Below are positions 30,886-54,524 of a stretch of 64,000 bases of DNA, piece after piece. The stretch comes from Syntrophorhabdaceae bacterium. Lineage in GTDB: Bacteria; Desulfobacterota; Syntrophorhabdia; Syntrophorhabdales; Syntrophorhabdaceae. The notes under the pieces were generated by a model. The model saw nothing but the letters and a program-made list of their open reading frames with translations, had not been told where the DNA came from and did not search any database. Positions within the stretch are counted from its first letter, which is position 1. Each line of letters starts with the position of its first letter. A program made the position numbers and the translations under genes. The stretch spans positions 1,312,001 to 1,376,000 of the forward strand of contig OY762209.1 of the NCBI GenBank assembly GCA_963665295.1. Reading direction: 5' to 3'.

Positions 30886-31452
30886 GGAAAACCGTAGCAG
30901 GATGGGCAGGGATTGTCAATCCTGCGGGCAACGGCACCTCATCAACGGATGGCCCTTGCGTACCCGGTTCTCAAGATTGATTCCATACACAAACAGGTGT
31001 TCCCGGGGAGGTCCATGGCGACCCATCGTAGTGCGTATATCCCTGCATTCATATATTTCCCGCATTCTCCTCGGGACATTCACTCCTTACCCTGCAATCC
31101 CTGCGCATTCTTGTCAACCCGTTCAACCGCCCTGATGATCGAGGCGGTGGTCACTCTCAAGTGACGGGCGATCTCTGCGGTGGGAAGACCATACTCGGTA
31201 ACGGCCCTGAAGGCGATTGCCGCCCTGACATGGGACACCTTCATACGTCTCCGCCACTTTGGAGTCAAGGGGGTTTATCTGTACTTTTAAGACATTCTTC
31301 ATTGATAAGATGAAGAATGACATCTGCAGTCAATCTTCCTTTCATCTGCCGCCTCTCTTCTGACTCTTCGATTTCACCTATGACGAAATCGCTGCTTCCA
31401 AATATTCCTTCGTTGTGTTGCCCGAGAGAAGCAACCTGAGGCTAGTGTCACG

Positions 31453-32076
31453 TCACTCATCTAATGTCGGATAAAGTCGCCTAAGTTTCACCCGCGCATC
31501 CTTAGTAGTAAATTGCCAGTTCACCTTTGCGTTGAGATTGTCGCGATGGGCCTGCCAGGCAGACACGGCGGAGTGGACCTCGGCGAGAGTGTCGATCCGG
31601 CGACTCAGGCATTGATGAATGAGCACGTTAAGCTCAATCTCCGCCATATTGAGCCAGCTTCCATGTTTGGGAGTATAGACGAATTCAAAGCGGTCCCAGA
31701 TGCGTTTGGCCTCTTCGGGAGAAAAGGCTTCATAAAGAGAGCCGGGTTTATGGGTGTTCAGGTTATCCATGACAAGGGTGATCCTTTTGGCCTTTCCATA
31801 CCGTCCTGAAAGTTCCCGGATGAACTCCGCCCAGTCGCGCTTCGTTCTCCTTTCCGATACCTTGGTCAGGCGCGTGCCCGCCAATGGTTCGTTGGCCATA
31901 AATACGGTACAGACGCCACATCGCTCGTATTCGTAGTCGTGACGCTCGAGCCGTCCCGGAGCGCGGGGAATCGGGGTACGCGTTTCTTTGATCAGTTGTC
32001 TTGGGGTTTCATCCATACAGACCACCGGGAATCTTTTATCATACGGGCGTTTATATACATCGAGTACGTTCTCCAT
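31453..32076 (-). CDS. IS630 transposase DDE part (probably joined by programmed frameshift)
   Basis: MEN.LDVY, CMDE, DYEYER.G, MDNLNTH, TPKHGSWLNMAEIE motifs. Confidence 0.92.
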   Translation of the reverse strand: MENVLDVYKRPYDKRFPVVCMDETPRQLIKETRTPIPRAPGRLERHDYEYERCGVCTVFMANEPLAGTRLTKVSERRTKRDWAEFIRELSGRYGKAKRITLVMDNLNTHKPGSLYEAFSPEEAKRIWDRFEFVYTPKHGSWLNMAEIELNVLIHQCLSRRIDTLAEVHSAVSAWQAHRDNLNAKVNWQFTTKDARVKLRRLYPTLDE

Positions 32077-32089
32077 GGCGGCGACGAAA

Positions 32090-32584
32090 TCAGCATTGCC
32101 CTCCGGTGGAATGACCCATCCTTGCTGCTTCCAGGGTTTTGTTTCGTTTTTTTAAAACCCGACGCACGGTTTCATAGGAGATATTCTCGATATAATTGAG
32201 CGCTACGGCCCGGTTCGCGAGCATACGCAAGGTCCACCTCGCAAAACCTTCTGGTGGTTCGCTACAGCTCAAGGCAATGAGGTGGGCCTCGAAATCGCCA
32301 TCCGCCTTCTTCTCGTAGACTCGCTCTGCTTTGTGTCCGGTAAGGGCAGTCTCAAGTCCTTCTTCCACGAATCGCTTTTTTACTCTATCTATCTTACGCA
32401 TGCTGATTCGCAACACTGCCGATATATCCTCGTTCTTCATCGGGTGGTCCTGGAACCGGCCCTGATCGCAATTGAGAAGAACCAGCGCATTGAGCACCTT
32501 TTGGGCTTTATGATTTCCTTTTTGCACCACGCCTTCAAGTTCCTTTCGCTCTTCTTTTTCGAGCACCACCCTATATTTTATCAT
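32090..32584 (-). CDS. IS630 transposase N-terminal (HTH) part
   Basis: EGLE.AL, PPEGFARWTLR.LA, ISYETVRRVLKK followed by A7C slippery run. Confidence 0.9.
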   Translation of the reverse strand: MIKYRVVLEKEERKELEGVVQKGNHKAQKVLNALVLLNCDQGRFQDHPMKNEDISAVLRISMRKIDRVKKRFVEEGLETALTGHKAERVYEKKADGDFEAHLIALSCSEPPEGFARWTLRMLANRAVALNYIENISYETVRRVLKKRNKTLEAARMGHSTGGQC

Positions 32585-32743
32585 TCGGACCTCCCCATGG
32601 TGAAATTTAACCCTTGAGGAGATTCTATATCATACTATACGACATTACAAGTGTGATGTGACACTAGGTGTTCTACTGTGGTGGCTGAGTGCTGTCGAGG
32701 GGGAATGTAACGAAAGAAAGAACCCTAATGTCAAGGACGTCCC

Positions 32744-33175
32744 CTAAAGGGCACCATGGCGCCCCCGTTCTTGTTTTCCTCTAGCAGAGTGTTGCCTTCT
32801 GACAGTGGATTTTCCCAATAACCAAAAAGCAGCTGGGCCTAACGCCAGTGTTCCCAAAAGATAGGGCCCAATGTGTCGCGGCACTGGCAGATATTCAAGG
32901 TAGTGAAGCACAAATATCGCGCCCAAAGGAATACCTACAACCATCAGGATGATCGAATATGCAGCCGTCCTTTTCTCTGGATGTTCCCTTATATACCTAA
33001 GCATGCCAGACCAGTATGCAGGAACTAATACTGTCGCGGTCCATAGACAAACTGCCCCAGCGAATGAGGCCCACTTTGTGAAGAGTCCAAAGTGATCTAA
33101 TGCGGCGTATACGAAAAAAAGGCCTGCCATGATGAATAGTCGTAATACTGGTGCTCTAAATTCTAGTAATCGCAT
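32744..33175 (-). CDS. Hypothetical four-TM membrane protein (cassette gene); its TAG stop overlaps a GGGGACGTCC site
   Basis: ORF with four hydrophobic segments; start set at MRLLEF. Confidence 0.65.
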   Translation of the reverse strand: MRLLEFRAPVLRLFIMAGLFFVYAALDHFGLFTKWASFAGAVCLWTATVLVPAYWSGMLRYIREHPEKRTAAYSIILMVVGIPLGAIFVLHYLEYLPVPRHIGPYLLGTLALGPAAFWLLGKSTVRRQHSARGKQERGRHGAL

Positions 33176-33317
33176 TATACCTACCTGTTTGACATACTGG
33201 TTCGATCCTGATAATACCGATAAACGCACTTACTCGTCTGAACAATCAACGCTGTCCCAAAGGAATACGAACGAATCGCCATTCCGCTCCCAAATCCAGC
33301 GCGCACAGTAGATGATT

Positions 33318-33506
33318 TCAACGGGGAACGCAGATTTCGCGCTTGTTGTAGCGAACTTGATGGTCATACGTGATGCCGTTCTCGGCATAATGGAATGAAG
33401 GGGTCCAGTGAACCGACCGCACTATGGATTCAACTTCTTCGATTTCACTAGAAAGAGTTCGCTTGAGTTGGTCACCGCAATGATAAAATACCGTCTCAGA
33501 CTTCAT
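33318..33506 (-). pseudogene. Probably 3'-truncated ORF, ending at a CGTTCCCC site
   Basis: RBS plus ATG, 62 codons, frame ends as it runs into the GGGGAACG site at 33323-33330. Confidence 0.45.
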
Positions 33507-33860: not shown

Positions 33861-35781
33861 CCGAAGTTCCCCGCCCAATATTAACCCATCACCTTGATAT
33901 TCCAATGATTATGGCAGAAATTGATTTCCCGTTACTGGCTACAGTCCGAGGAGGGCAAGGGCGCGGGCCTGGAGAGGTGTCGGATCAGTAAGAAGGGTGA
34001 AGGCCGGGGCCATGGAGTCCAAAACCATCCTGCACCGGTTTTTGCATCGGGTCCCCAGTGCGGCAAGGAGGGTACGGAAGCTCTGGACGGGAAGGCCGTC
34101 AGGGGTGAGCTTGGTGGTCTTCTTTTTCTTTGCGGAAGAAGATGACTCCGCGGGCTTTACCGGGTCTCTCGTCGTTCGTGAGAGGGGAAGCTCCTCATCG
34201 TCGAAGAGCAGCGGCGTAAGGGCCTCCCTCATATGCCACTCTACGTAATAGGCGAGGGTGCAGAGAAAGATGTGGGCTCGCACGTGATCCTCGGTACGGT
34301 GGTGAATGGGACGGACGAGAAGATCGATGCCCTTCAAGGTCCTGAAGGCCCGCTCTACCCGGGCAAGGTTCTTGTAGTTCCGTACCACATCGGCGGGAGG
34401 AAGGGCTGGTTCACTCGTACGGATCACATAGATCCCGTCGAGGGCTTCTTCTTCGGTGATTGACTCCTCGTTCCGGGCGAATGAGAAGGACCCGTCTCCG
34501 ATGGTAAGGATAAAGTGCTTCGCCATCTTGTGATCGTTGACTACCGCGCCGACTTTCTTCCCTATCTCCGCTGCGGAAAGAGGCGTCCTTGTCCTTCTCC
34601 CGACCGCCCGTACAATGGAGGACAACTTCTTTTCCGTCACATCGAGGAGCGCGTTTCTTTTCCTCTTTCTCTCTTCGGCAAGAAGGGGGTTGAAGCAAGC
34701 GATGAGCCTTTCCCCCGGATACTCGGGAGAGGTGATTTCCGCAAAGTCCTGGGTATCGAAGAGGGACATCTGGATGCTCCCCTGTCCCACAAGCTCGCGT
34801 ATGGCGGAAGACCTGAGGGCCGATATCCACCCTATGCCGGGCATCTCCTTTATCTTTGTAATCTGTGTCTCCGTAAGCATGCCCCTGTCGCCCACGAGGA
34901 CGAGGTGATCGAGACCGAATCTTTCTTTGAGCTTTGCCGTCTGGTCGGGAATGGTAGAGGGATCGCCCGTATTCCCCGGATAGACGGTAACTGCAACAGG
35001 TCGGCCTTCGTGATCGGTGAGTACTCCATAGACGATGATCCTCTTTCCCTTTTCATCCCGGTCATGGCCGAACTGCGCAAGGGGACAGGTGTGGCCCTCG
35101 TAGTAACTGCTCGTCACATCGTAGAGCACGAGCGAGCCCTCGGTAAGGTGCTTATTCGCCAGCTTCTTCTCGATCCGCTCCTGTCTTGCCAAAAGCCAGT
35201 CCAGGGCATCATAGAGTTCGTCCTCATCGGCATCTGCAACCGAGAGTTCCTCCGCCACCGAAGTAGTATGCCAGAGCCTCGTAGTTGCTAATTTCGATGA
35301 GGGGTGGATGAGGCGTTCCACGATCATGGCGATTACGAGGTCTCTCTCCCTTCCAGGCTTCGAGGCAATGACCGTATCAAGGCCAAGCTTCTTTATTGTC
35401 CCGAGTATGGCCTCCACATGGCCGTGGGGGAGAGACTGCTCAACCTTAAAGGCTTCCTTCGGAGAGACGAGAGACTCCCCTTTCAATACACGCCTCAAGA
35501 GCTCGATCTTCTCTTCCGGCCAATCAGTGAGGTTTGCGACTGTCTTCTTCTTTATCTTTTTGCCTTCCCTCCATGCCTCCCTCAAGAGGATGGCGGGCCG
35601 GGAGTTGCGGTTGGGGATGCTTTCGATGTACATGGAACATATATAGCAAATAGCTTACCTACATGTCAAGTACATAATGCACTATTACATGGCAACAAGT
35701 AGAAGATATGATTATCACCCTATTCCCGTCATTTCAACGGGATAGAGTGATATTGGGGGGATTTCACAGGGGGAACTTCGG
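33861..35781 (-). mobile_element. IS1634-family insertion sequence
   Basis: TIRs CCGAAGTTCCCC/GGGGAACTTCGG; 6-bp target duplication TTTAGC (33855-60, 35782-87). Confidence 0.93.
33939..35633 (-). CDS. IS1634-family transposase
   Basis: LYDVTSSYYEG, GHDRD, VGDRGM, DGIYVIRTS, YKNL..VERAFR.LK, RPIHHR motifs. Confidence 0.95.
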   Translation of the reverse strand: MYIESIPNRNSRPAILLREAWREGKKIKKKTVANLTDWPEEKIELLRRVLKGESLVSPKEAFKVEQSLPHGHVEAILGTIKKLGLDTVIASKPGRERDLVIAMIVERLIHPSSKLATTRLWHTTSVAEELSVADADEDELYDALDWLLARQERIEKKLANKHLTEGSLVLYDVTSSYYEGHTCPLAQFGHDRDEKGKRIIVYGVLTDHEGRPVAVTVYPGNTGDPSTIPDQTAKLKERFGLDHLVLVGDRGMLTETQITKIKEMPGIGWISALRSSAIRELVGQGSIQMSLFDTQDFAEITSPEYPGERLIACFNPLLAEERKRKRNALLDVTEKKLSSIVRAVGRRTRTPLSAAEIGKKVGAVVNDHKMAKHFILTIGDGSFSFARNEESITEEEALDGIYVIRTSEPALPPADVVRNYKNLARVERAFRTLKGIDLLVRPIHHRTEDHVRAHIFLCTLAYYVEWHMREALTPLLFDDEELPLSRTTRDPVKPAESSSSAKKKKTTKLTPDGLPVQSFRTLLAALGTRCKNRCRMVLDSMAPAFTLLTDPTPLQARALALLGL

Positions 35782-35843
35782 TTTAGCGGGACATAAAGAT
35801 TAAACTACAAATTAAGGGTTCATTTTCAAGGGAGTGACTTAGC

Positions 35844-36008
35844 AGGGACGTCCATCAAGCTATCAAATCAGCCATGCTATAGCCTTCTGTACCCCTAAGA
35901 TGATGCACCGCCCCTGCGGCATCAATGCGAGCTTTTCTCGGCATGAAGATATGGTATCAGGGAGGGGTATGGATGTCAAGTGAATGTGATTATTTAATGG
36001 ACGTCCCT
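35844..36008 (-). mobile_element. 165-bp miniature RAYT-derived element, copy 1
   Basis: Inverted ends AGGGACGTCCAT; TTGACA-17-TACCAT promoter; mini-ORF MPRKARIDAAGAVHHLRGTEGYSMADLIA*. Confidence 0.85.
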
Positions 36009-36280
36009 AATGTCCTATTCATAACGAGATATTGTATGATATGGGGGCTATAAAGGCCCAGTACATTCGTTATCCGGACCCTCACCGACTTCACGACCTG
36101 GCCTCACACCATAATGCATGGAGGTCTCATCGGCGACTGCTGGTTTCTCCTTTTGTTTGGAGTCGCGGACAGGGCCCCTGCTTGTCAATCGAAGTCCCCG
36201 GCTTATCCGTCTTTGTGAGAACATGATCGTGGGGGCGAAAAGTAAAAAGTAGCCCCCTCGACCGGCTTGCCCTCTGCCCA

Positions 36281-38947
36281 CTATCTTAAGGGCAGCCTGA
36301 TGCTTGTCGTCCCTCCCGCCAGCCACTTTCTTGTAAACCCCACCTTCGTGGCAAGGCCGAGCATTTTGTCATTTTCCGTCAATACTTCTCCGACGATCTC
36401 GTCCAGCCCCTTTTTCCTCGCTCTCTCGATGAGGATCTGCAAGAGCTTATGGCCCAACCCTTTTTTCTGAAAACTGTCGTGGACAAGCAGCCCGAATTCG
36501 CCCGAGTTCTTTTCAACATCCACATAGAGCCGCCCCACACCTATCATCTTCTTGTGACCGTTTTCCGTGATTTCCGCGACAATGGCCAGTTGCCGGTCGT
36601 AGTCTATGTTGCAAAAGAGGACGAGCCTGTCATGGCTTACGTTCCCGAAGAAAGAGAAGAACCTTGTCCTGCGCGATTCTTCCGACAAGCTCTCAAGCAG
36701 CTCACGCTCCATGGGCTCATCCTCGGGTTTTATGGGCCTCAGCACTACCTCGGTTCCATCCGTAAACTTCCAGTTCGTGATGAGACCTATCGGGTATGGG
36801 GTGATTACCAGGTGGGGATATTGCGAAGAATAATTGATGGGTTCCGTTTCGAGGACGATCCGGGCATCAAGTGCATGGGGCTTACCTCGTGACACGGCCA
36901 GCGGATTTATATCAATCTCTGCTATTTCAGGGAAGTCCACGAGAAGATTGGAGAAACTGACAAGGATCTCCTCGATCTCCTCTAAGTTCGCAGGCGCTTT
37001 ACCCCTGTAACCTTGAATCAACCTGTATGCCTTGGTCTCTTCGAGAAGCCGCTTTGCAAGAGTCTGGTTAAGCGGGGGCAAGGCTATGGAAAAATCCTTG
37101 ATAAGCTCCGCGGTTATCCCTCCCATCCCAAAGAGGATGACAGAACCGAAATCTTTATCCCTTTTTGACCCGAGGATAAGTTCGTAATCGATTGCCTGGA
37201 TCATCTTCTGGACAGTCACGCCTTCTATGGCAGCGCGAGGTGCACGCTCGTTAACCTCCCTCATCATTCTTGCATAGGCGTTCCTGAGATGATCACCTGA
37301 ATTGATCCCTGTGATGACGCCCCCTACGTCACTCTTGTGCGAGATGTCCGGGGACACTATCTTGATCACCACCGGGTAGCCAAGCTGCTTTGCCACATCT
37401 TCCGCCTCTTCAGAAGTACTGGCCAAACGGGGAACCGTTGTGGGAATGCCGTAACCGGCGATTAACTCTTTCGATTCCTTCTCGTTAAGAAGCGTCCTCC
37501 CCTCCAGAGCAGCTTTTTTGATGAGGTCCTTGAGCGGCCCTTTCTGCGGGGTTTTATGCTCCGACAATTCCGAAGGAGTCTCATAGAGCAACCCGAGGTT
37601 TCTCTTGTATCTGAACATATTGGCATAGGTCCTCACCGCTTTTTCCGGTGTTTCATACGTGGGAATATTGTTTTGAACCAGCATCTCTCTTGCGTTTCTC
37701 ACCTGCCTTCCGCCCATCCAGGCCGTGATGATGGGTTTCCCCGATTTTTTCGCGCTGTCGACAACCGCCCGGGCAACGTCTTCGGACCCCGCGATAGTCA
37801 TGGGGACGTAAATGACGAGAACACCGTCTACGCCCGGGTCAGCGAGACATGCATCGACTGCCTTCGCATATCTCGCGGTATCGGCATCCCCGAGCACGTC
37901 AACGGGATTGCCCTTGCTCCAGTGGGGCGGCAAGGCATTATTCAGCTTCCCGATAGTCTCTGGGGAAAGCCGGGCAAGTTCCCCTCCAAGATCGATAAGG
38001 GCATCGGTTGCCATGACGCCGGGCCCGCCTGCTGCCGTCACAATGGCAAGTCTCGGTCCGCCGGGCAGCTTCCGGGAATCGAGAACCTCGGCGGCGTCGA
38101 ACAAGTCCTCAATCTCTCTCACCCGTACGACGCCCACCCTCTTGAACGCGGCCTCATAGATGGTATCGTCTCCGGCCATCGCGCCCGTATGGGATCGGGC
38201 AGCCTTCGCGCTTTCGGCAAACCTTCCCGGCTTGAGGACTATTATGGGCTTGTGGAGCGAGAAGGCCCGGGCAGCGCTCATGAACTTTTTTGCATCGCCG
38301 ACTCCTTCCATGTAAATCAGGATGCTCTTTGTATCCCAGTCGTCTCCGAGAAAGTCTACGAGATCCCCAAACCCGACATCGATCATTGAACCAAGGGAGA
38401 CAAACATGCTGAATCCAACGTGGGCGTCCGCTGCCCAGTCGAGTATTGCATCGCCCAGCGCGCCGCTCTGTGAAATGAATGCAATATCCCCGGGCGGAGG
38501 AGTTGTTTCCATGAACGTGGTATTGAGTCCCGCATTGGGCCTTATAAAGCCCAGACAGTTTGCCCCCAGAATACGCATGCCGTAACGTTTTCTGATATCA
38601 GATATCTGTTCCTCAAGGAGTACTCCCTCGGCGCCCGTTTCCTTGAAGCCCGCGGAGATTATCACGGCGCCGCCCACACCGGCTTTCCCGCAATCTTCCA
38701 CCAGGCCGGGTACCCCCTTAGCGGGCGTGGCGATAACCGCGAGATCTAAATGCTCTGGAATGCTGCCGATATCCGGGTAGCATTCGTGTCCGAGCAGCGT
38801 CTTTTTGTGGGGGTTCACGGGGAAAATCTTTCTATCCCTGGAATTGAGCAGGTTCGTCAGGATTATCCGGCCGACAGCGCCATCTTTATCCGTTGCGCCG
38901 ATCAAAGCTATGCTTTTGGGGTCAAAAATACTGGAAAGAGTTGCCAT
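36281..38947 (-). CDS. Bifunctional acetate-CoA ligase-like / GNAT protein (Pat/YfiQ-type protein lysine acetyltransferase)
   Basis: F.PKSIALIGA, SQSGALG, NPVDVLGDA, HKSDVGGV ATP-grasp, C-terminal GNAT (CNIDYDRQLA, Q.KGLG). Confidence 0.93.
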   Translation of the reverse strand: MATLSSIFDPKSIALIGATDKDGAVGRIILTNLLNSRDRKIFPVNPHKKTLLGHECYPDIGSIPEHLDLAVIATPAKGVPGLVEDCGKAGVGGAVIISAGFKETGAEGVLLEEQISDIRKRYGMRILGANCLGFIRPNAGLNTTFMETTPPPGDIAFISQSGALGDAILDWAADAHVGFSMFVSLGSMIDVGFGDLVDFLGDDWDTKSILIYMEGVGDAKKFMSAARAFSLHKPIIVLKPGRFAESAKAARSHTGAMAGDDTIYEAAFKRVGVVRVREIEDLFDAAEVLDSRKLPGGPRLAIVTAAGGPGVMATDALIDLGGELARLSPETIGKLNNALPPHWSKGNPVDVLGDADTARYAKAVDACLADPGVDGVLVIYVPMTIAGSEDVARAVVDSAKKSGKPIITAWMGGRQVRNAREMLVQNNIPTYETPEKAVRTYANMFRYKRNLGLLYETPSELSEHKTPQKGPLKDLIKKAALEGRTLLNEKESKELIAGYGIPTTVPRLASTSEEAEDVAKQLGYPVVIKIVSPDISHKSDVGGVITGINSGDHLRNAYARMMREVNERAPRAAIEGVTVQKMIQAIDYELILGSKRDKDFGSVILFGMGGITAELIKDFSIALPPLNQTLAKRLLEETKAYRLIQGYRGKAPANLEEIEEILVSFSNLLVDFPEIAEIDINPLAVSRGKPHALDARIVLETEPINYSSQYPHLVITPYPIGLITNWKFTDGTEVVLRPIKPEDEPMERELLESLSEESRRTRFFSFFGNVSHDRLVLFCNIDYDRQLAIVAEITENGHKKMIGVGRLYVDVEKNSGEFGLLVHDSFQKKGLGHKLLQILIERARKKGLDEIVGEVLTENDKMLGLATKVGFTRKWLAGGTTSIRLPLR

Positions 38948-39909: not shown

Positions 39910-40218
39910 GTGGCAAAGATTCCCAGAGGAGTGTTTACAAAAGAGTTCAAAGAGGAAGCGGTAAGAATGGTGACGGAGGGCGGTCTCGGCATACCTGAGG
40001 TAGGCAGAAGACTGTCACTTGCGAAGTCAACCCTCGCTCGGTGGGTAGCCCAGGCAAAAAGGGGCGGCCTTGTGGTAACGCGAGGTCAGGCGACGGACCA
40101 GGACATGGAAGTGGCCCGCCTGAAGCGTGAGATAGCTGAGCTCAAGATGGAGCGCGATATTTTAAAAAACGCGACCGCGTACTTTGCCAGAGAGTCGCTC
40201 AAAGGTACGCGATCGTGA
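39910..40218 (+). CDS. IS3 OrfA
   Basis: FTKEFKEEAV, HTH, leucine zipper EVARLKRE...ERDILK. Confidence 0.92.
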   Translation: MAKIPRGVFTKEFKEEAVRMVTEGGLGIPEVGRRLSLAKSTLARWVAQAKRGGLVVTRGQATDQDMEVARLKREIAELKMERDILKNATAYFARESLKGTRS

Positions 40219-43205: not shown

Positions 43206-43304
43206 TGAAACCACCTCCCCATCTATCACAATTGAACTACTTCAGTCTGTTCCACCACCCTCATGCACACGAAGTCGCTCCAACCAGTCATGCGGGCGGG
43301 GTCG

Positions 43305-44368: not shown

Positions 44369-44515
44369 AATGCATCCCCTAAGAATACAGTAACAGTTTA
44401 GTCCTCTCGGAACTTTTTCCAGCAAAATATTATGTCTAATTTGCACAACACCTTTGATTCCCTTGTTCCATGATGGTATTATAATAGAAGTACTACTACT
44501 CATGTGGAGGGTTCA

Positions 44516-46311: not shown

Positions 46312-46463
46312 GGGGGACTAAACTGTTACAGAATACAGTAACAGTTTAGTCCCCCCGGAACTTTTTCCAGCAAAATATTATGTCTAATTTCCACAAAACC
46401 TTTGATTTCCTTGTTCCATGATGGTATTATAATAGGAGTACTACTACTCAGTCGGAGGGTTCA

Positions 46464-46742
46464 ATGGAACAAATCGATCTTCTTAAAAGGCAGCGGGAGA
46501 GACTTAAGGAGGACATTGTCGCACAGCTGGATTTCTTCCTTATCGGGACGGTGGCCAAGTCCCCTTCCATGACGGGCCACTCCCTTACCACAAAAGTGAA
46601 GGGGAAGACCGTAACCGTGTATGTGAGAAAACAGATTGCCGAGAAGGCGAAGGAGATGACGAAGCGGTACAAGATGATGTGGCTTCTCATACAGAAGCTT
46701 TCTAAGATCAACTGGGAGATACTGAAACAGGAGAGCGAGTGA
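46464..46742 (+). CDS. IS-associated small protein (DUF6788-like), copy 2
   Basis: Identical protein to copy 1. Confidence 0.75.
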   Translation: MEQIDLLKRQRERLKEDIVAQLDFFLIGTVAKSPSMTGHSLTTKVKGKTVTVYVRKQIAEKAKEMTKRYKMMWLLIQKLSKINWEILKQESE

Positions 46743-48259
46743 AGAGGGTCTATCCTCCATACGGCTACGATTGTCTTTATAAGGACAATTGCCCCCATCT
46801 TAACTTTCTCTCCACCCTATGGGTCTTTGGAGAATATGAGCGGGCCCATGAGGTGTACGAAGAGCATCTTCGGATTATCGATGTGTTCCGGGACAGGCTG
46901 GATGACACCATGAAGCGTATCCGTCTTTTAGAGAAGGAGAACGAGGAACTGAAGGCGAAGAATACCGCATTGCATCGAAGACAGTTCAAGGCGAACAAAA
47001 AACCGGAGCATGCGGTCTCTTTGGCAGGGAGGAAGCGCGGCGCTCCGGTCGGACACCCCGGGTGGTTCAGGCCCGAGCCTGCCCGCGTGGATGCGACGGT
47101 TCACGTGCCCGCTCCCGATCGATGCCCCCATTGCGGGTCAGGCCCTCTTGTCCCCGGGGAAGGGATCCGTGAGCATGTGCAGGAAGACATTGTCATAAGA
47201 CCCCGCACGGTGGTGAGACGGTATGTGCATAAGGAAGCATACTGTAGCCGTTGCGGGCGTTCTGTGGTGAAGGCGGCTCCCGACGAACTTCCGAATGCTC
47301 CTATCGGACCGGTTACGAAATCCGTTGCCTTATACTTGCGGTACAGGATAGGTATGAGCTATCGAAAGGTAGAGGAAGTTATGAGGGAGATCTTCGGCCT
47401 TGCCTTTGTCCCTGCTTCGGCAGTGGGGTTTGACAGGGCTGCGGCGAAAAGGGGGACACCTCTTTATGAAGACCTCCGGGAGAAGATACGCGCCTCGGAA
47501 ATAGTTCATGCCGATGAGACATCATGGAGGAACGACGGGACCGGTCATTACGCGTGGTATGCGGGAAACGCCGATCTTGCCCTCTTCCATATCGACCGGC
47601 ACCGCTCGACAGACGTGGCTCAACATCTTCTCGGGGACAACTTCGACGGGGTGCTCATCACCGACCGCTATGCCGCGTATAACGGAGTTCATGCGAGAGA
47701 AAGGCAGACATGCCTTGCCCACCTTATCACCAGGGCCAGGGAGTTGACCCGGGAGCTCGTCCTCATGGAGACAAGAGATACAAAAGCGGAGGCGTTCTGT
47801 GATGCGGTCGGGAGGCTCTTCTCGGATGCCTGCGCCGCGGGCGGGGATCTTCTTAAGGGAAAGAGAGAGTGGGGAGATGCTCCCCGCATCGAGAAGCAAT
47901 TGAGAGCAACCCTCGGGAAGATATGTGCAAAGCCCCTCAAGTATAAGCCGGCGGAAGGGCTCCGTACCTTCCTTACCGGCAAAGACCGGAAGTTTCTCTT
48001 CACGTTCCTTCGCTATCCGGGAGTACCACCTACCAACAACCAGGCAGAACAGTCGATCCGCTTCCTGGTGATCATGAGGAAGCTCATGTTCGGTACGCGG
48101 TCGGCAACGGGACTGAAGACCCACAGTATCCTGCCGAGTCTCATCATTACTTCCATGAGGCAAGGGAACGATCCACGGAAGTTCCTGGAGACGCTTCTGG
48201 TGTCGGATACCATGACGGCACAGGCGGCACTGTATCGCAATGGGGCGAGGGCTCCGTGA
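46739..48259 (+). CDS. IS66 transposase, copy 2
   Basis: Near-identical to copy 1. Confidence 0.95.
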   Translation: MKRVYPPYGYDCLYKDNCPHLNFLSTLWVFGEYERAHEVYEEHLRIIDVFRDRLDDTMKRIRLLEKENEELKAKNTALHRRQFKANKKPEHAVSLAGRKRGAPVGHPGWFRPEPARVDATVHVPAPDRCPHCGSGPLVPGEGIREHVQEDIVIRPRTVVRRYVHKEAYCSRCGRSVVKAAPDELPNAPIGPVTKSVALYLRYRIGMSYRKVEEVMREIFGLAFVPASAVGFDRAAAKRGTPLYEDLREKIRASEIVHADETSWRNDGTGHYAWYAGNADLALFHIDRHRSTDVAQHLLGDNFDGVLITDRYAAYNGVHARERQTCLAHLITRARELTRELVLMETRDTKAEAFCDAVGRLFSDACAAGGDLLKGKREWGDAPRIEKQLRATLGKICAKPLKYKPAEGLRTFLTGKDRKFLFTFLRYPGVPPTNNQAEQSIRFLVIMRKLMFGTRSATGLKTHSILPSLIITSMRQGNDPRKFLETLLVSDTMTAQAALYRNGARAP

Positions 48260-48410
48260 GGGGGACTAAACTGTTACGTCGTCCGTAACAGTTTAGTCCT
48301 CTCGGAACTTTTTCCAGCAAAATATTATGTCTAATTTGCACAACACCTTTGATTCCCTTGTTCCATGATGGTATTATAATAGAAGTACTACTACTCATGT
48401 GGAGGGTTCA

Positions 48411-48689
48411 ATGGAACAAATCGATCTTCTTAAAAGGCAGCGGGAGAGACTTAAGGAGGACATTGTCGCACAGCTGGATTTCTTCCTTATCGGGACGGTG
48501 GCCAAGTCCCCTTCCATGACGGGCCACTCCCTTACCACAAAAGTGAAGGGGAAGACCGTAACCGTGTATGTGAGAAAACAGATTGCCGAGAAGGCGAAGG
48601 AGATGACGAAGCGGTACAAGATGATGTGGCTTCTCATACAGAAGCTTTCTAAGATCAACTGGGAGATACTGAAACAGGAGAGCGAGTGA
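48411..48689 (+). CDS. IS-associated small protein (DUF6788-like), copy 3
   Basis: Identical protein to copy 1. Confidence 0.75.
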   Translation: MEQIDLLKRQRERLKEDIVAQLDFFLIGTVAKSPSMTGHSLTTKVKGKTVTVYVRKQIAEKAKEMTKRYKMMWLLIQKLSKINWEILKQESE

Positions 48690-50206
48690 AGAGGGTCTAT
48701 CCTCCATACGGCTACGATTGTCTTTATAAGGACAATTGCCCCCATCTTAACTTTCTCTCCACCCTATGGGTCTTTGGAGAATATGAGCGGGCCCATGAGG
48801 TGTACGAAGAGCATCTTCGGATTATCGATGTGTTCCGGGACAGGCTGGATGACACCATGAAGCGTATCCGTCTTTTAGAGAAGGAGAACGAGGAACTGAA
48901 GGCGAAGAATACCGCATTGCATCGAAGACAGTTCAAGGCGAACAAAAAACCGGAGCATGCGGTCTCTTTGGCAGGGAGGAAGCGCGGCGCTCCGGTCGGA
49001 CACCCCGGGTGGTTCAGGCCCGAGCCTGCCCGCGTGGATGCGACGGTTCACGTGCCCGCTCCCGATCGATGCCCCCATTGCGGGTCAGGCCCTCTTGTCC
49101 CCGGGGAAGGGATCCGTGAGCATGTGCAGGAAGACATTGTCATAAGACCCCGCACGGTGGTGAGACGGTATGTGCATAAGGAAGCATACTGTAGCCGTTG
49201 CGGGCGTTCTGTGGTGAAGGCGGCTCCCGACGAACTTCCGAATGCTCCTATCGGACCGGTTACGAAATCCGTTGCCTTATACTTGCGGTACAGGATAGGT
49301 ATGAGCTATCGAAAGGTAGAGGAAGTTATGAGGGAGGTCTTTGGTATACCCTTTGTCCCTGCGTCGGCAGTGGGGTTTGACAGGGCTGCGGCGAAAAGGG
49401 GGACACCTCTTTATGAAGACCTCCGGGAGAAGATACGCGCCTCGGAAATAGTTCATGCCGATGAGACATCATGGAGGAACGACGGGACCGGTCATTACGC
49501 GTGGTATGCGGGAAACGCCGATCTTGCCCTCTTCCATATCGACCGGCACCGCTCGACAGAAGTGGCTCAACATCTTCTCGGGGACAACTTCGACGGGGTG
49601 CTCATCACCGACCGCTATGCCGCGTATAACGGAGTTCATGCGAGAGAAAGGCAGACATGCCTTGCCCACCTTATCACCAGGGCCGGAGAATTGACCCGGG
49701 ATCTCGTCCTCATGGAGACAAGAGATACAAAAGCGGAGGCGTTCTGTGATGCGGTCGGGAGGCTCTTCTCGGATGCCTGCGCCGCGGGCGGGGATCTTCT
49801 TAAGGGAAAGAGAGAGTGGGGAGATGCTCCCCGCATCGAGAAGCAATTGAGAGCAACCCTCGGGAAGATATGTGCAAAGCCCCTCAAGTATAAGCCGGCG
49901 GAAGTGCTCCGTACCTTCCTTACCGGCAAAGACCGGAAGTTTCTCTTCACGTTCCTTCGCTATCCGGGAGTACCACCTACCAACAACCAGGCAGAACAGT
50001 CGATCCGCTTCCTGGTGATCATGAGGAAGCTCATGTTCGGTACGCGGTCGGCAACGGGACTGAAGACCCACAGTATCCTGCCGAGTCTCATCATTACTTC
50101 CATGAGGCAAGGGAACGATCCACGGAAGTTCCTGGAGACGCTTCTGGTGTCGGATACCATGACGGCACAGGCGGCACTGTATCGCAATGGGGCGAGGGCT
50201 CCGTGA
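48686..50206 (+). CDS. IS66 transposase, copy 3
   Basis: Variant residues VFGIPF, STEV, AGELTRD, AEVL. Confidence 0.95.
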   Translation: MKRVYPPYGYDCLYKDNCPHLNFLSTLWVFGEYERAHEVYEEHLRIIDVFRDRLDDTMKRIRLLEKENEELKAKNTALHRRQFKANKKPEHAVSLAGRKRGAPVGHPGWFRPEPARVDATVHVPAPDRCPHCGSGPLVPGEGIREHVQEDIVIRPRTVVRRYVHKEAYCSRCGRSVVKAAPDELPNAPIGPVTKSVALYLRYRIGMSYRKVEEVMREVFGIPFVPASAVGFDRAAAKRGTPLYEDLREKIRASEIVHADETSWRNDGTGHYAWYAGNADLALFHIDRHRSTEVAQHLLGDNFDGVLITDRYAAYNGVHARERQTCLAHLITRAGELTRDLVLMETRDTKAEAFCDAVGRLFSDACAAGGDLLKGKREWGDAPRIEKQLRATLGKICAKPLKYKPAEVLRTFLTGKDRKFLFTFLRYPGVPPTNNQAEQSIRFLVIMRKLMFGTRSATGLKTHSILPSLIITSMRQGNDPRKFLETLLVSDTMTAQAALYRNGARAP

Positions 50207-50220
50207 GGGGGACTAAACTG

Positions 50221-50877
50221 TTACACTTTCTTTTGGACCGAGGGTGGAATCCTGTCGCTATCGAGTATCTGAAGGATTATCTTATTGATCTTTTCATCGG
50301 GTCTCTTTAGCAGCGCGACAAAAGCGTCTACGGTCTTCTTCTCGTTTGACAATCTCGTCAAAAGAAAGAGGTTCGTACCGAGAAGGAAAAGGTCTGTCTC
50401 ACGTGTCAGTAGCCCGACAAATTCATCTTCCACCGCGACAAAGATATCCTGATTTGACGCTCTCAGGCAAGAATATATCATTGCCCTTGTCGCCAAATCA
50501 GTCTGCGAACCGAACAGTACAGGAGATTTCCTGAGGAATGCCTTCCAACCAACGCCTTGAACAGATACTATCGTGAGGCCCACCTGCCTGTCATGCTGGA
50601 CAGAGGACGCAAGCAATTTTTCAATTGCCTCTTCGTCAGGCGGCAAAGAGTTAACCAAGTTTCGTCGAGCCTGTTCCAATCTGCCATAATCTTCGGGAAG
50701 TCTTCCTTGCTGATCCAGGTCGTTATGGGTCAACGCATCGCCCGCCTGGAGATACTCGCCGGCACATTTATACCAGGGCGCGGAGGTGTAGTTGCTTGCG
50801 AAACATTGGTTTGCTACCAGGACGAGGATTGCTATAGTAATCGCTTGACCTGCTCTTTTAGCCACAAGGCACCTCAC
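50221..50877 (-). pseudogene. Secreted helical (HEAT-like) hypothetical protein, truncated by IS66 copy 3
   Basis: Signal peptide; stop codon supplied by the IS66 terminal TTAC. Confidence 0.65.
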
Positions 50878-50974
50878 TCACCACCGCAGGTCGATAGCCG
50901 GCCTTTCCCGCGTGTAATATCATAACAACGCCCGGCACATAAATCGATCGCTCCTAATGTCCCCCCTGATGGTT

Positions 50975-51250
50975 TCACTTATCGAGAGGGAAACCACATT
51001 TGCTGCAATTTCGCGGGACCCACGGCGTGAATACCATCCCAAAGTCAAGGCCCAAGAAAGGGTTTTGGTACACTGATTTTCCGCAACTCGGGCATCTCAG
51101 ACGTTTTTTTACGATCATGTCCAAAGCAAGAATGGGAATCCATAGCAGGAGAATCAGCGCATTATTCAACGCGATTGCCAACAGGCCCATACCAAAAAAC
51201 ATGGCAATCCCACATGTTACCCAAAGGTGTGCCTTCGAACGCAAACTCAT
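50975..51250 (-). CDS. Small membrane protein with C-terminal Zn-ribbon (cassette gene)
   Basis: AGGAGG RBS; two TM; CPSCG...CSKCG. Confidence 0.75.
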   Translation of the reverse strand: MSLRSKAHLWVTCGIAMFFGMGLLAIALNNALILLLWIPILALDMIVKKRLRCPSCGKSVYQNPFLGLDFGMVFTPWVPRNCSKCGFPLDK

Positions 51251-51444
51251 CCAGATGGTCCCCTCCTATGGTCCCGGAGTGAAGTCAGAGGGAAGTTCGA
51301 CCTTTATACAGGAAATAAATCTCGTGGCACTAATAGAGCCTCCCGGAATCCCCGGGCCATAGTTAACAGTCAGTCCTGCCGGAGCGCTATCTGGTTTCAA
51401 TATAGCTGTGCCCCCCACGTCCCATTACTGACATTCACATTGCC

Positions 51445-51609
51445 AGGGACGTCCATTAAACTATCAAACCAGCCATACTATACCTTTCTGTACCCCTAAG
51501 ATGATGCACCGCCCCTGCGGCATCAATGCGAGCTTTTCCCGGCATGACGATATGGTATCAGGGAGAGGTACGGATGTCAAGGGAATGTGATTATTTAATG
51601 GACGTCCCT
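51445..51609 (-). mobile_element. 165-bp miniature RAYT-derived element, copy 2
   Basis: Perfect 16-bp inverted ends AGGGACGTCCATTAAA; TTGACA-17-TACCAT; mini-ORF MPGKARIDAAGAVHHLRGTERYSMAGLIV*. Confidence 0.88.
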
Positions 51610-52568
51610 AATGTCCCACTGAACTTGAATTCACCGGAATCGCTCTTCTTCATCAGACATACGCCGTTTATTTCGCCACTGGTAGGCACTCGGATCAAGT
51701 GAATCTTCTCTGTCTTGAGATTGGCTACGCCGATATTATTCTTATATCTGCCTAAGCTGTCAATAAAGATTACTCGATCATCATCAATCCAACCGCCTAT
51801 TTCTTTGAATACGTGCCCGGTAAAGGATTGGACGGTTTTGCCCAACCTATCAGCGATAATCAAATGCCTGTTATCAGAGGAGGAATACGCTATAAGGTTC
51901 CCAGTTCTTGAAATGAAAGGCATTATCCCCTCAGCCCAGGGGGTAAGCACATGAGTCTCTGTATTCAAAAAATATATTCGAGGTGCTTCGCCCATTTTAG
52001 TCGCTCCCGACAAAGCCAATACTTTGCTGTCGGGACTCCATGACCAAGGAAATGCCCACCCTTCCTTAAACTCCCCGTAGTGCTCAAGAAGTCCATTTTT
52101 GAGATTCTTAACAAGAACCGACGCTCCATCTACCATTGCCAGCTTAGACCCATCCCTTGATAATACCGGGAACGCAGTCCAAGTATTGTCCAAATCTGCC
52201 AGACTTTCAAGCTTCATAGTAGCTGGGTTATACGTCTTTATGCGAACTCTATGTTCCATGTCGCCTGAAGAAAGCATTCTGGAGGTAAATATCTGATGAA
52301 ACATGAGCGTTTTGCCAGGCCCACATTTCAAGGCATTCAACTGGAAACTTCCATCTGGTTGTTGCCTCTTTGGCGCGGCATAAATTAATTCAGCTTTATC
52401 ATTTTCTGAACCAATTCTATATATCTTGTGGTTCGACAAATAGAATAGATCATTCCCAGGCGGCAAAATACTGCTCTTGTCCCCGTCAATGCCCACGCCC
52501 GTCGAACACCCCCCAATAAGACAGAATACACTAGTGATAAACACGAATGCTAATTGGCAAATCTTCAT
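51591..52568 (-). CDS. Lipoprotein with TolB-like beta-propeller (cassette gene); 3' end reads into the miniature element
   Basis: Lipobox-like IGGC; P.LSRDGSKLA, WSPDSKVLA repeats. Confidence 0.75.
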   Translation of the reverse strand: MKICQLAFVFITSVFCLIGGCSTGVGIDGDKSSILPPGNDLFYLSNHKIYRIGSENDKAELIYAAPKRQQPDGSFQLNALKCGPGKTLMFHQIFTSRMLSSGDMEHRVRIKTYNPATMKLESLADLDNTWTAFPVLSRDGSKLAMVDGASVLVKNLKNGLLEHYGEFKEGWAFPWSWSPDSKVLALSGATKMGEAPRIYFLNTETHVLTPWAEGIMPFISRTGNLIAYSSSDNRHLIIADRLGKTVQSFTGHVFKEIGGWIDDDRVIFIDSLGRYKNNIGVANLKTEKIHLIRVPTSGEINGVCLMKKSDSGEFKFSGTLGTSIK

Positions 52569-52756
52569 AGTACCTCACATCTCATTCAGGTATTTATTCC
52601 ACCCAGACACAGTACCATTTTGCATCTTATCCAGCGGTGAAGCAGTAGCAGAATTAAGCATCACCTTGGCCCAAGTTTGACAGTTAAACGTGAAGGGGAA
52701 CATTAGGGACGGGAACATTGGCGAATTGTCCTGAGTCAAGGCTGACTCTTAATGGT

Positions 52757-53494
52757 TTACTCCAGTTTCCCCAAATAAGCATTAATTACTTCCAAGAAAT
52801 TATATACCCCGTGCGCAATGATGCAGGGGTATAGAGTACCCGACAGTTTATATAACAACCCAAGAAGCAAGCCGAAACCAAATGCCGAAACTAAATATGA
52901 CAGTAAGATTGTAACGTTCATGTGATGAATTTGGACTTGGGTCATGTGAAAAATGCTGAAGGCAGCGGCCTGAACAATTATGCCGAACGTCTCCCCCCAT
53001 TTTTTCCTCAGACCGGTGTACAAAAATCCCCTGCAGTAAATCTCCTCGGCTATCGGACCAAGAACGGTTAGAGGAAACCCGCTTATCGAAATTGGGACGG
53101 CTATAATCATGATAATATCCGATTTGCGTAACGCGGCCATAGAAGATAGCCTCCCGGACAGAAACGCGGCCATGCAAAAATATACGAGGCCGGATGCAAG
53201 TCCGATCCAGATGATTCTTTTCCTTCCCCAGTTTCCTTGCCTCAAACCTAATGATCGTAAGCCCAGACCGTACCGCTTTTTGATCCAGACCGTCGTGAGA
53301 AGGATAGAACTGACCGCTCCGAAGTACATTGCAACAGCCAACTGCGATCTATCGCTTAACCCGCTTCCCATGACAAGCAGAAGAATGGCGAAGACAATGT
53401 TTCCAACGAAAAGAATGGTTGACGCAGCTACAATATCACAGAGGCCCCATACCTTTGTGTCTTCAATTTCCACTATAGGCCCCAGACCATTCAT
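52757..53494 (-). CDS. CPBP/Abi (CAAX protease-like) intramembrane protease (cassette gene)
   Basis: P.AEE..CRG.LY, F...H, SG.LYP.I.AH..YN motifs; start set at MNGLGP. Confidence 0.88.
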   Translation of the reverse strand: MNGLGPIVEIEDTKVWGLCDIVAASTILFVGNIVFAILLLVMGSGLSDRSQLAVAMYFGAVSSILLTTVWIKKRYGLGLRSLGLRQGNWGRKRIIWIGLASGLVYFCMAAFLSGRLSSMAALRKSDIIMIIAVPISISGFPLTVLGPIAEEIYCRGFLYTGLRKKWGETFGIIVQAAAFSIFHMTQVQIHHMNVTILLSYLVSAFGFGLLLGLLYKLSGTLYPCIIAHGVYNFLEVINAYLGKLE

Positions 53495-53623
53495 CGCTGT
53501 TGCTCCGCCCTTCTCCTCTCCAATGCAGGCTGAATCCATCGGTTCCACACGTCCTTAAGTACGGTAAGAGCCTGCCCGTAAAATGTTAGACGAGCAGGCA
53601 CCCCTTCGGGTCCATGGAACAAT

Positions 53624-53682
53624 AGGGATATTAAACTATCAAATCAGCCATGCTATAGCCTTTCTCTCTCACCAAGGCTTCG
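53624..53682 (-). mobile_element. RAYT element right-end fragment
   Basis: Encodes EALVREKGYSMADLIV*; near-identical to 42089-42150. Confidence 0.8.
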
Positions 53683-53822
53683 TGGTTCCATTGTGAAATG
53701 ATGGCCTTAGTTCTTCCCGAGAGCTAATTGTCGAACATGGATAATACCTTTCGCATATCTGAATTGTGTTCTGATTTTTTCAATAATACAAGAAGAATTC
53801 TCTCAATGTCCCCAAAGTTCCT

Positions 53823-54269
53823 TCACCTGTTGCCCCGTTCAATACCTCCTCCGTCTCTAGTTTTAAGGAGTTTCTGATAGAGCATCGCTTCAATTCGGTC
53901 AATCTCAGCCTTTGTTACCGGTAAATCAGGTTTGGATGGATTAGCTATGATTATGCCAAAATTCACGCAAGTATCATTGTCCGAGCCGCGCTTGAAGTGC
54001 AACATTATTCGAATCTTCGCGCTATTATTGCCGTCCCTTGCAATTTTCTTCTGGTAGGCAGTAACCAACGCACCTGCATAGGGGTAACTATTTCCGCCGG
54101 TCCTTGCGTATCCGTTATCCTCGATCGTTCCTTTTATGGCATCCACTTCATTATTCGATATTTGCGATACAAGGAGTCTTTATTTTTGCGGGTCGAGCAG
54201 GGTGGCACATCCATAGGTAGAACTAATGAACCAAATACACAAAACCGTCACCGCAAGTATTCTCTTCAT
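53823..54269 (-). pseudogene. Lipoprotein gene with a single in-frame TAA at codon 30
   Basis: MKRILAVTVLCIWFISSTYG-CATLLDPQK*RLLVSQ... continues in frame into ORF 53823-54146; stop at 54180-54182. Confidence 0.7.
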
Positions 54270-54524
54270 CGCGCGCCGTCACCCCGCCCGCCTTGTAGAA
54301 TACCGCCTTCTTCTGCTTGTTGAAAGCGTTAAAATCAGGGTACCTTGCGAGGGTCCCTATGGTTGAATCGGTGCGGGAAGGTTTAGGCACAGGGAATGGA
54401 TTTTCGTGACGCCCCTGCGCCCGTCATTCCACGGGGAGAGGGCCGGTGCGCGACGAGGGGATGGCAAAAAGGCTGTAATATGGCAGGGGGAAGGGGGCGC
54501 GGGTTGGGCGGCAGCAGTTCTTTC

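What the first reader, a model, noticed from the sequence alone, without database searches (positions are those of the whole stretch)
31073..54358. Integrase-free gene-cassette array punctuated by RAYT (Y1/HUH transposase) end sites
Seen: after removing the IS elements, about ten small genes of visibly lower GC all lie on the minus strand. Nearly every junction carries a short related site: GGGACATT 31073; GGACGTCCCC 32735-44; GGGGAACG 33323; GGGACAT 35788; AATGTCC 36009; AGGGACATCC 42089; GGGGTCA 42716; GGGGTCGT 43298; GGGGACG 44240; GTCGTCCCC 44360; TAATGTCCCCC 50955; ACGTCCC 51417; AATGTCCC 51610; GGGGAACATTAGGGACGGGAACATT 52695; AATGTCCCC 53805; GTCCCT 54353. Several stop codons overlap or abut a site (32744, 42720, 43305) and one gene reads into one (51591). 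The same motif forms the ends of RAYT-type transposase remnants in the array. Known: RAYT/TnpA(REP) enzymes cut and rejoin ssDNA at short cognate sequences. Inference: a trans-acting RAYT captures and stacks 0.4-1.3 kb DNA pieces here, an integron-like array built by an HUH enzyme rather than a tyrosine recombinase. I know of no description of this arrangement but could not search.
Basis: partly seen in the sequence, partly recalled or inferred. Interest (0 to 1): 0.9.

Follow-up and report, generated by a model that had tools for sequence, protein, structure and literature searches.

The report
Transposase-end gene patchwork with homing IS66
This patchwork of foreign genes is stitched with the end repeats of a known but little-studied tyrosine transposase rather than being a new integron, but it exposes a group of IS66 jumping genes that land, one fixed end first, a fixed distance beside those end repeats in many bacteria.

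Summary
All 16 quoted motifs sit where stated. Eight are true terminal inverted repeats (TIRs) of TIRYT/TIRtron Y1 transposases: two 173-bp MITEs plus solo ends. Four intact genes lie elsewhere in the genome. The other motifs are only short cores; these are enriched at cargo stop codons (5 of 11 against 4%) but are individually weak.

An integron-like system is not shown. Sites face both ways, no module is repeated or reshuffled, and there is no IntI or intact attC. One module is a former integron cassette. This scan has noted TIRYT-end arrays and a TIRYT–attC link before, on other DNA.

The new result concerns the tandem IS66/DUF6788 element in the array, which is target-specific. Its left end lies 27 nt outside a TIR core at 7 of 7 insertion sites in this genome. 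In other genomes it lies at 26–29 nt in 25 of 29 homologous loci and at 26–27 nt in 4 of 4 prospectively tested ones (right ends 1 of 26; background 1%). I found this in neither the paper searches nor the scan's notes. How it targets the ends is unknown.

The parts
31073..31274 (-). C-terminal helix-turn-helix remnant of a Y1/TIRYT-type gene ending at a GGGACATT site (right end of a third subfamily)
   Evidence: HMM of C-termini of 34 related Y1 proteins E 6e-7, but DnaA also hits at 1e-8; Pfam HTH_23 below cut-off; no full-length homologue found
31442..32667 (-). IS630-family element inserted in that remnant; not TIR-targeted
   Evidence: a TIR core in the flanks of 2 of 10 copies, at no fixed distance
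32726..32744 (-). True TIRYT left end, overlapping the stop of gene 32744-33229
   Evidence: 16 of 18 nt identical to the left TIR of the Y1 gene in L148
32744..33229 (-). Cargo gene, 161 aa, membrane-protein-like, GC 0.47
33861..35781 (-). IS1634-family element with 6-bp target duplication; not TIR-targeted
   Evidence: NF033559; core in the flanks of 1 of 12 copies
35843..36015 (-). 173-bp MITE of TIRYT subfamily A (left end with TTGACA, first codons, last codons, right end)
   Evidence: 94% to 51444-51616; third copy at genome 1.81 Mb; matches both ends of the intact genes
36281..38947 (-). Acyl-CoA synthetase/GNAT fusion gene, 888 aa, host-like GC; does not fit the small-cassette pattern
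39090..42086 (-). IS1380-type element (with an IS3 at 39844-41113) inserted in the outer part of the right TIR, 5-bp duplication
42087..42189 (-). Right end plus last ~100 nt of a subfamily-A TIRYT gene, joined to the stop codon of gene 42185-42676
   Evidence: 93-94% to intact genes; joint shown
42185..43229 (-). Two cargo genes (163 and 169 aa); the site at 42716 is either a TIR core or a collapsed attC half
   Evidence: attC R'-half score 10.9 bits at 42726
43305..44203 (-). Two-gene module (GIY-YIG-like + DUF1330-like); relatives occur as integron cassettes
   Evidence: the pair is conserved in 4 of 80 metagenome loci; attC directly after the gene in 3 of 80
44330..44368 (-). Left end of TIRYT subfamily B with TTGACA; the target of the IS66 insertion
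   Evidence: 32.6 bits; 96-98% to the left ends of the intact B genes
44390..50224 (+). Three tandem copies (1940 bp each) of an IS66-family element, DUF6788 ORF + transposase, left end 27 nt outside the TIR core; copy 1 is flanked by an 8-bp duplication
   Evidence: NF033517 and PF20586 over cut-off
50221..51250 (-). Two cargo genes (the first ends inside the IS66 end) separated by an outer-TIR motif at 50955-50964
51444..51616 (-). Second 173-bp MITE of subfamily A; gene 51591-52568 reads into its left TIR
51591..53539 (-). Cargo genes: TolB-like propeller lipoprotein (325 aa) and CAAX/CPBP protease (260 aa), separated by two outer-TIR motifs at 52695-52719
53615..53682 (-). Degenerate right end plus last ~55 nt of a subfamily-A TIRYT gene
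53805..54270 (-). Outer-TIR motif at 53805 and last cargo gene (lipoprotein-like, with an in-frame stop near its start)

Best explanation
The region upstream of rplU is a strain-specific insertion hotspot with three layers. (1) Ends of TIRYT/TIRtron elements (Y1/HUH transposase with a DnaA-type C-terminal HTH, bounded by TIRs that start GGG[AT]C[AG]) from at least three subfamilies, present as MITEs, solo ends and gene stumps, all oriented the same way. Shown. Inferred: the enzyme, supplied by four intact genes elsewhere, cuts and rejoins single-stranded DNA near these ends at the replication fork; one-ended or aborted events leave solo ends and join foreign DNA to them. (2) Small foreign genes, at least one module of which comes from the integron-cassette pool and has lost its attC. 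The origin is shown for that one module; how it arrived is inferred. (3) DDE insertion sequences. One of them, IS66/DUF6788, is a specialist that inserts left end first 26-27 nt outside a TIRYT TIR core, makes an 8-bp duplication, and forms tandem stacks by hitting the same spot again. The pattern is shown. The most likely mechanism is recruitment by a TIR-bound or TIR-processing TIRYT complex (about 45%), then direct reading of the extended TIR (about 40%), then other means (about 15%); none is shown. The array is best read as accreted debris around active ends, not as a regulated cassette system.
For: TIR anatomy, HUH motif and Y---NP; Y1_Tnp over cut-off plus weak Bac_DnaA_C. 22 of 26 full-length related genes have a core at the left, 18 of 26 at the right, and 13 of 26 have a matching pair. 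Tandem duplications of TIR plus flank are frequent. The core is enriched at cargo stops. 4 of 4 intact genes and 24 of 29 ends lie head-on to replication (dnaA at 1.07 Mb; ends typed by a heuristic and clustered). IS66: 7 of 7 host-facing left ends at the same distance with seven different spacers; 25 of 29 left against 1 of 26 right ends elsewhere, background 1.1%; 4 of 4 new loci. Targets match an independently built TIR library at >=8 of 12 inner nt in 19 of 29 against 10% of other cores. A Y1 gene starts right behind the target in 6 of 29. The genome holds 8176 cores (889 with an intergenic insertion point), yet all 7 hits are among about 29 TIRs.
Against: No strain pair or read shows any joint forming at a site. 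Short sites score poorly with an independent matrix. Homologues of the DUF1330-like gene have no TIR within 200 nt downstream and a core near the stop in only 3 of 77. Co-orientation of small low-GC genes with TIRYT (50 of 66 over 20 loci) falls to 25 of 38 without three integron arrays of one genome. For IS66, 4 of 29 left ends lack the motif, and a variant end present 4 times in this genome is not at the fixed distance. Most comparison genomes are MAGs.
Confidence: 0.6

Rival explanations
1. One reading: a dedicated integron-like system in which the trans-acting TIRYT excises, captures and stacks gene modules at short cognate sites.
For: Core enriched at stops. Runs of same-facing sites enclose single genes (42092-42717-43299-44241). 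All cargo is co-oriented with the remnants, and left ends carry TTGACA pointing into the runs. A low-GC gene at 14507-15055 also lies between two directly repeated ends. A preprint proposes a diversifying role for subclass 2.1 enzymes at prochlorosin arrays, then withdraws the causal claim.
Against: Sites face both ways and are mostly short cores. No module is duplicated in the genome or found TIR-bounded elsewhere. No skipped-module joint appears in contigs of four runs, though contigs drop rare variants. A 2.7-kb host-like gene sits inside the array. 34% of this genome's genes lie in same-strand runs of 11 or more.
Confidence: 0.12
2. The array is a decayed integron cassette array (CALIN) whose attC sites were split or collapsed by TIRYT insertions, after loss of the integrase.
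For: In one relative, close TIRYT homologues sit inside real attC arrays, co-oriented, twice in the place of an attC. attC occurs in 6 of 20 TIRYT loci (3 genomes) against 0 of 20 control loci (the model was trained partly on these loci). The GIY-YIG + DUF1330 module is a cassette elsewhere. An attC half lies at 42726.
Against: No intact attC in 28-57 kb (best 9 bits). Only 2 attC in the whole genome, none in the 5 own TIRYT regions searched, and no IntI over cut-off. Relics at only 1-2 of 13 junctions.
Confidence: 0.13
3. Passive junkyard: TIRYT ends, IS elements and foreign genes collected independently in dispensable DNA; the short sites are chance and TIRYT made none of the cargo joints.
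For: Four unrelated IS families sit in 23 kb. Independent-matrix tests are not significant. TIRs also lie singly elsewhere in the genome.
Against: Core and outer-motif enrichment. Cargo stops are fused directly to TIRYT gene stumps and ends. All remnants share one orientation. It does not explain IS66 homing.
Confidence: 0.15

Closest known systems
TIRtron / TIRYT (Di Nocera et al. 2013, PMC3733652) = TnpA-Y1 subclass 2.1(.2) (Quentin et al. 2018, PMC6006769) = RAYT group 1 (10.1101/119735)
   Same: Y1/HUH transposase of about 320 aa with a DnaA-type C-terminal HTH, flanked by TIRs starting with a G-run core, no REP hairpins, with moderately repeated solo or paired TIRs in the genome.
   Different: The passages read describe the repeats but not ends as joints of foreign genes, MITEs, a link to replication direction, or an IS that targets them. 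The core here is mostly GGG[AT]C[AG], only partly GGGGWSAS.
Integron cassette arrays / CALINs
   Same: Co-oriented small genes of lower GC with short sites near stops; at least one module is a cassette elsewhere.
   Different: No IntI, no intact attC, sites in both orientations, no evidence of cassette excision or shuffling.
Site-seeking IS: IS4321/IS5075 (Tn21 TIRs), IS1111-attC group, ISPa11 (REPs), as cited in PMC11187229
   Same: An IS that parasitises the ends or recombination sites of another mobile element in a fixed orientation.
   Different: Those are RNA-guided DEDD IS110/IS1111 elements. This is a DDE IS66 with an 8-bp duplication that inserts 26-27 nt outside a short core, with a variable insertion-site sequence; its upstream non-coding stretch is only 126 nt.
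IS66 family (NF033517)
   Same: IS66 transposase, GTAA-starting terminal repeats, 8-bp duplication in 12 of 24 loci with both ends.
   Different: One 92-aa DUF6788 ORF precedes the transposase, and target choice is strict. That IS66 is generally regarded as unspecific is recalled knowledge, not tested here.
tnpA-REP / prochlorosin association (10.1101/2020.03.09.984088)
   Same: Subclass 2.1 genes and C-terminal fragments interspersed in arrays of small genes.
   Different: There the genes face each other, no inverted repeats were found, and the cargo is one gene family; the authors later found no strong evidence for causation.

Membership tests
TIRYT/TIRtron (subclass 2.1) | Y1_Tnp core with HUH motif and Y---NP | tested here: met
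   PF01797 over cut-off for four genes; H60, H62, Y119, N123, P124 conserved in 36 rows
TIRYT/TIRtron (subclass 2.1) | C-terminal Bac_DnaA_C/HTH extension | tested here: inconclusive
   Bac_DnaA_C hits at E 0.03-0.08, below cut-off; a local HMM of the C-termini also finds DnaA
TIRYT/TIRtron (subclass 2.1) | Gene flanked by TIRs with a G-run core instead of REP hairpins | tested here: met
   window ends 93-98% identical to these
TIRYT/TIRtron (subclass 2.1) | Formal placement in subclass 2.1 by the authors' profiles | not tested
   profiles not used; assignment rests on length, domains and TIRs
Integron / CALIN | IntI integrase in the genome | tested here: not met
   13 TIGR02249 matches, none over the cut-off
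Integron / CALIN | Two or more attC sites in the array | tested here: not met
   own covariance model from 22 attC sites: best 9 bits in 28-57 kb; IntegronFinder itself was not available
Integron / CALIN | One site per cassette, all in one orientation | tested here: not met
   both orientations among cargo stops
REP/RAYT (REPtron) | GTAG-tagged palindromic REPs flanking the gene | tested here: not met
   flanks are non-palindromic TIRs; NF047646 below cut-off
IS66 family | IS66 DDE transposase | tested here: met
   NF033517 233 bits, cut-off 180
IS66 family | Terminal inverted repeats and 8-bp target duplication | tested here: met
   no same-species strain; contigs identical or patchy, with no joint at a site
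   needs biochemistry

The most novel reading that the evidence does not exclude
TIRYT ends are the recombination sites of an integrase-free, HUH-driven gene-capture platform that also strips integron cassettes of their attC and stacks them. The platform is used widely enough to have its own parasite: an IS66/DUF6788 clade that finds the ends through the TIRYT-DNA complex and inserts at a fixed offset. The homing pattern alone I put at about 0.9 (interest about 0.65); the figure below is for the whole reading.
Probability: 0.12. Interest if true: 0.9.

Novelty: new variant of a known kind. Interest (0 to 1): 0.6.

Why it matters
TIRYT enzymes are among the commonest Y1 transposases (subclass 2.1 occurs in 14.9% of strains, PMC6006769), yet I found no described activity for them. 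An IS66 that lands a fixed distance from their ends marks which ends are live and makes their biology testable. It would be a DDE transposon that homes to another element's ends without the RNA guide of IS110/IS1111, and a compact two-gene candidate for orientation-fixed, site-directed integration. It also explains why TIRYT ends turn into hotspots where foreign genes and IS stacks pile up. If the cassette reading held, it would add a second, integrase-free route to gene arrays.

Tried and rejected
Synteny at rplU: 20 relatives share no array gene or Y1 hit upstream, so no empty site could be defined. Cargo DNA in 300 phylum genomes: one hit (the GIY-YIG gene) for 42100-44330 and none for 50230-54500. 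Public runs: 5 listed, 4 laid on 50240-58600. Two match the window without differences (one may be the source sample), two are patchy, and no joint falls at a site; only this 8-kb part was laid. Rfam: no match. My first attC finders failed and were replaced. IS630 and IS1634 are not TIR-targeted. Integrase fragments at genome 0.54, 1.87 and 2.17 Mb look like phage-type remnants, not IntI. IS66 homologues: none in plasmids at E 1e-50 or in viral contigs. Two distant IS66 without DUF6788 lack the motif, but their ends are uncertain, so they are a weak control. DUF6788 folds as a helical hairpin with a small beta insert (pLDDT 83) with no informative structural match or named atlas family beyond itself. 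A DUF6788-TIRYT complex job gave no verdict. The idea that the TIR mimics the IS66's own end was dropped because the core faces the opposite way. The R''/R' pair at 42608-42729 overlaps a coding sequence and was not accepted as an attC.


Full report
Setting. The window is G000:C1:1312001-1376000 of a single-contig 5.5-Mb genome. dnaA is at 1.07 Mb and the GC skew turns at about 1.09 and 3.91 Mb, so the array's minus-strand genes face the replication fork. The region between a beta-propeller gene (28166-30292) and rplU (54591) holds IS630, IS1634, IS1380 with a nested IS3, three tandem IS66 copies, one 888-aa host-like gene and eleven small genes of GC 0.43-0.49.

The sites. The genome has four intact Y1 genes of 312-323 aa, none in the window. 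They fall into two subfamilies about 43% identical, each flanked by terminal inverted repeats. A matrix trained on 18 ends outside the window finds six window ends at 24-33 bits, and 29 genome hits at >=20 bits against 3 in a shuffle. Four of the six form two 173-bp MITEs; 42092 and the degenerate 53626 are right ends with gene stumps; 44365 is a left end of the second subfamily. Site 32743 is the left end of a third subfamily (16 of 18 nt to L148), and 31080-31274 is an HTH stump consistent with it (a direct homologue search found nothing). The remaining sites are short. A 7-nt core is enriched at cargo stops: 5, 6 and 7 of 11 for three windows against 4.3, 7.3 and 12.5% of 2747 genes (windows set after looking). 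An outer motif is enriched 6 against 0.7. But the published consensus gives 1 of 11, and an independent 18-nt matrix gives 2 of 12 with no excess density. Sites face both ways.

What the family is. Earlier notes of this scan pointed to TIRtrons, and I checked the papers. PMC3733652 (abstract and passages) defines TIRYT/TIRtrons and their solo, dimeric or grouped TIR families. PMC6006769 (passages) equates them with subclass 2.1 and describes the DnaA-type HTH. 10.1101/119735 (passages) calls group 1 the more IS-like RAYTs. Among 26 full-length relatives, 22 have a core on the left, 18 on the right and 13 a matching pair; tandem duplications of a TIR with a few flanking bases are frequent.

Is it a cassette system? 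There is no IntI over cut-off, no intact attC in 28-57 kb and two attC in the whole genome, so an integron does not explain the array as it stands. Nor is there positive evidence for HUH-driven shuffling. No module is repeated in the genome. The locus is not syntenic in 20 relatives. Cargo is almost absent from 300 phylum genomes. Four runs laid on 50240-58600 show no joint at a site (contigs only, and only part of the array). For the one cargo gene followed into metagenomes (80 best of 432 loci), relatives often end in an attC R''-like box, have an attC directly behind the gene in 3 of 80 by covariance model and keep the GIY-YIG neighbour in 4 of 80. They show a TIR core near the stop in only 3 of 77 and no TIR within 200 nt. 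So this module comes from the integron pool and is not usually TIR-bounded. In relatives, attC sites occur in 6 of 20 TIRYT loci (three genomes) and 0 of 20 control loci (model trained partly on these loci). In G034 the TIRYT sits within attC arrays, co-oriented with the cassettes. Small low-GC genes are co-oriented with TIRYT in 50 of 66 cases (large genes 47 of 98), but in only 25 of 38 without the three G034 loci. The scan has noted the TIRYT-attC link before. I read the array as debris accreted around active ends: TIRYT-made joints are likely but unproven, and a dedicated cassette system is unlikely (0.12). The full text of 10.1101/2020.03.09.984088 makes, and then softens, a related proposal for prochlorosin arrays.

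The unexpected result. The IS66/DUF6788 element has 13 left ends in this genome. Six abut another copy; the other 7 face host DNA, and all 7 lie exactly 27 nt outside the G of the G[AT]CCC core of a TIR, with seven different spacers and both TIR subfamilies hit. A variant end present 4 times does not follow the rule, although two of these touch TIR sequence. A scan of representative genomes gave 34 loci. I dropped 3 distant ones, and 2 had no readable left end. Of the remaining 29, 25 have the core at 26-29 nt (22 at 26-27), covering all 16 assemblies with a readable left end; these are labelled delta proteobacteria, Nitrospirota, Verrucomicrobiae, Chlamydiales, Bacteroidales and Bathyarchaeia (MAG labels, not checked). 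Right ends show it in 1 of 26 and random positions in 1.1%. A later search gave 28 more loci. Among close relatives a left end was found in six: one repeated an earlier locus, one lay at a contig end, and the other four all have the core at 26-27 nt. The targets are TIRs, not just cores: 19 of 29 match an independently built TIR library against 10% of other cores, and a Y1 gene starts directly behind the target in 6 of 29. The genome has 8176 cores, 889 with an intergenic insertion point, yet all seven insertions are at about 29 real TIRs. IS630 and IS1634 show no such pattern. An 8-bp duplication is present in 12 of 24 loci with both ends. Repeated insertion at the same offset explains the tandem stack: copy 1 is flanked by the same 8 bp on both sides. 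Spacers between copies recur at other loci, suggesting that tandem dimers move as units (inference).

Mechanism, shown and inferred. Shown: the anatomy, the distances and the orientations. From established knowledge: Y1/HUH enzymes act on single-stranded DNA and favour the lagging-strand template (PMC3971601, passages). Here 4 of 4 intact genes and 24 of 29 ends are head-on (heuristic typing, clustered sites). Inferred: TIRYT cleavage and strand transfer near the core scatter ends and join foreign DNA. The IS66 finds the ends either through a TIRYT-bound complex or by reading the extended TIR. The tolerance of very different inner TIR sequences, together with strict selection of real ends, leans slightly to the first.

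Comparison and novelty. The array is a further example of TIRtron ends in variable DNA, which this scan has noted at least eight times. Homing of an IS to another element's ends is known for IS4321/IS5075, the IS1111-attC group and ISPa11 (PMC11187229, passages), and group IIC introns home to attC (PMC7923331, passages), but these are not DDE IS66. PMC8266576 (passages) only compares TnpA-REP with IntI. I found no description of IS66 homing to TIRYT ends, or of a TIRYT cassette array, in paper searches (listings only unless named above). The IS66 homing is also absent from look-ups of the scan's notes. The library lacks most subscription journals, ISfinder could not be searched, and supplements were not read, so prior mention cannot be excluded.

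Verdict. Observation partly confirmed; interpretation partly supported; new variant of a known kind; interest 0.6, carried mainly by the IS66 result.

Noticed in passing
window 13960-14060 and 15085-15170: Two related TIR-like ends of another subfamily in direct orientation enclose a low-GC 1.1-kb stretch with gene 14507-15055: a second, small end-bounded module outside the finding.
   Followed up: partly
G000:C1 819804-825640, 2293559-2297445, 2655037-2658924: Further tandem stacks of the same IS66 next to TIRs; spacers between copies recur between loci (one matches the window's 8-bp duplication), suggesting mobile tandem dimers.
   Followed up: partly
L138, L140, L141 (G034): Close TIRYT relatives inside intact attC arrays rich in toxin-antitoxin-like cassettes; in L140 the element lies between an R''-like box and a GTTA-starting sequence, and in L141 an IS66 sits at its left end.
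   Followed up: partly
G000:C1 596429-596489 and 2371147-2371237: Two isolated attC sites in a genome without IntI; the second lies about 500 nt from a truncated TIRYT gene.
   Followed up: partly
G000:C1 1810855-1810900, 837250-837275; L047, L052, L103, L153: Tandem repeats of a TIR or its outer 10-12 nt directly outside TIRYT ends, a possible footprint of repeated cleavage and rejoining.
   Followed up: no
G000:C1 861848-872720: A cluster whose ORFs resemble a type I restriction-modification system (read from sequence, not scanned) lies between a TIRYT right end and a TIRYT left end.
   Followed up: no
window 53823-54270: The last cargo gene has a lipoprotein-like signal peptide separated from the rest by an in-frame stop; probably a pseudogene.
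   Followed up: no
window 7014-9176, 10772-13885, 28166-30292: Three large secreted proteins with similar repetitive C-terminal stretches; for 28166-30292 these are InlB B-repeat-like domains behind a beta-propeller.
   Followed up: no
L135, L136, L137 (G029): A 581-aa ORF recurs directly beside TIRYT genes in two loci and elsewhere in a third; it may be another element that favours TIRYT ends.
   Followed up: no
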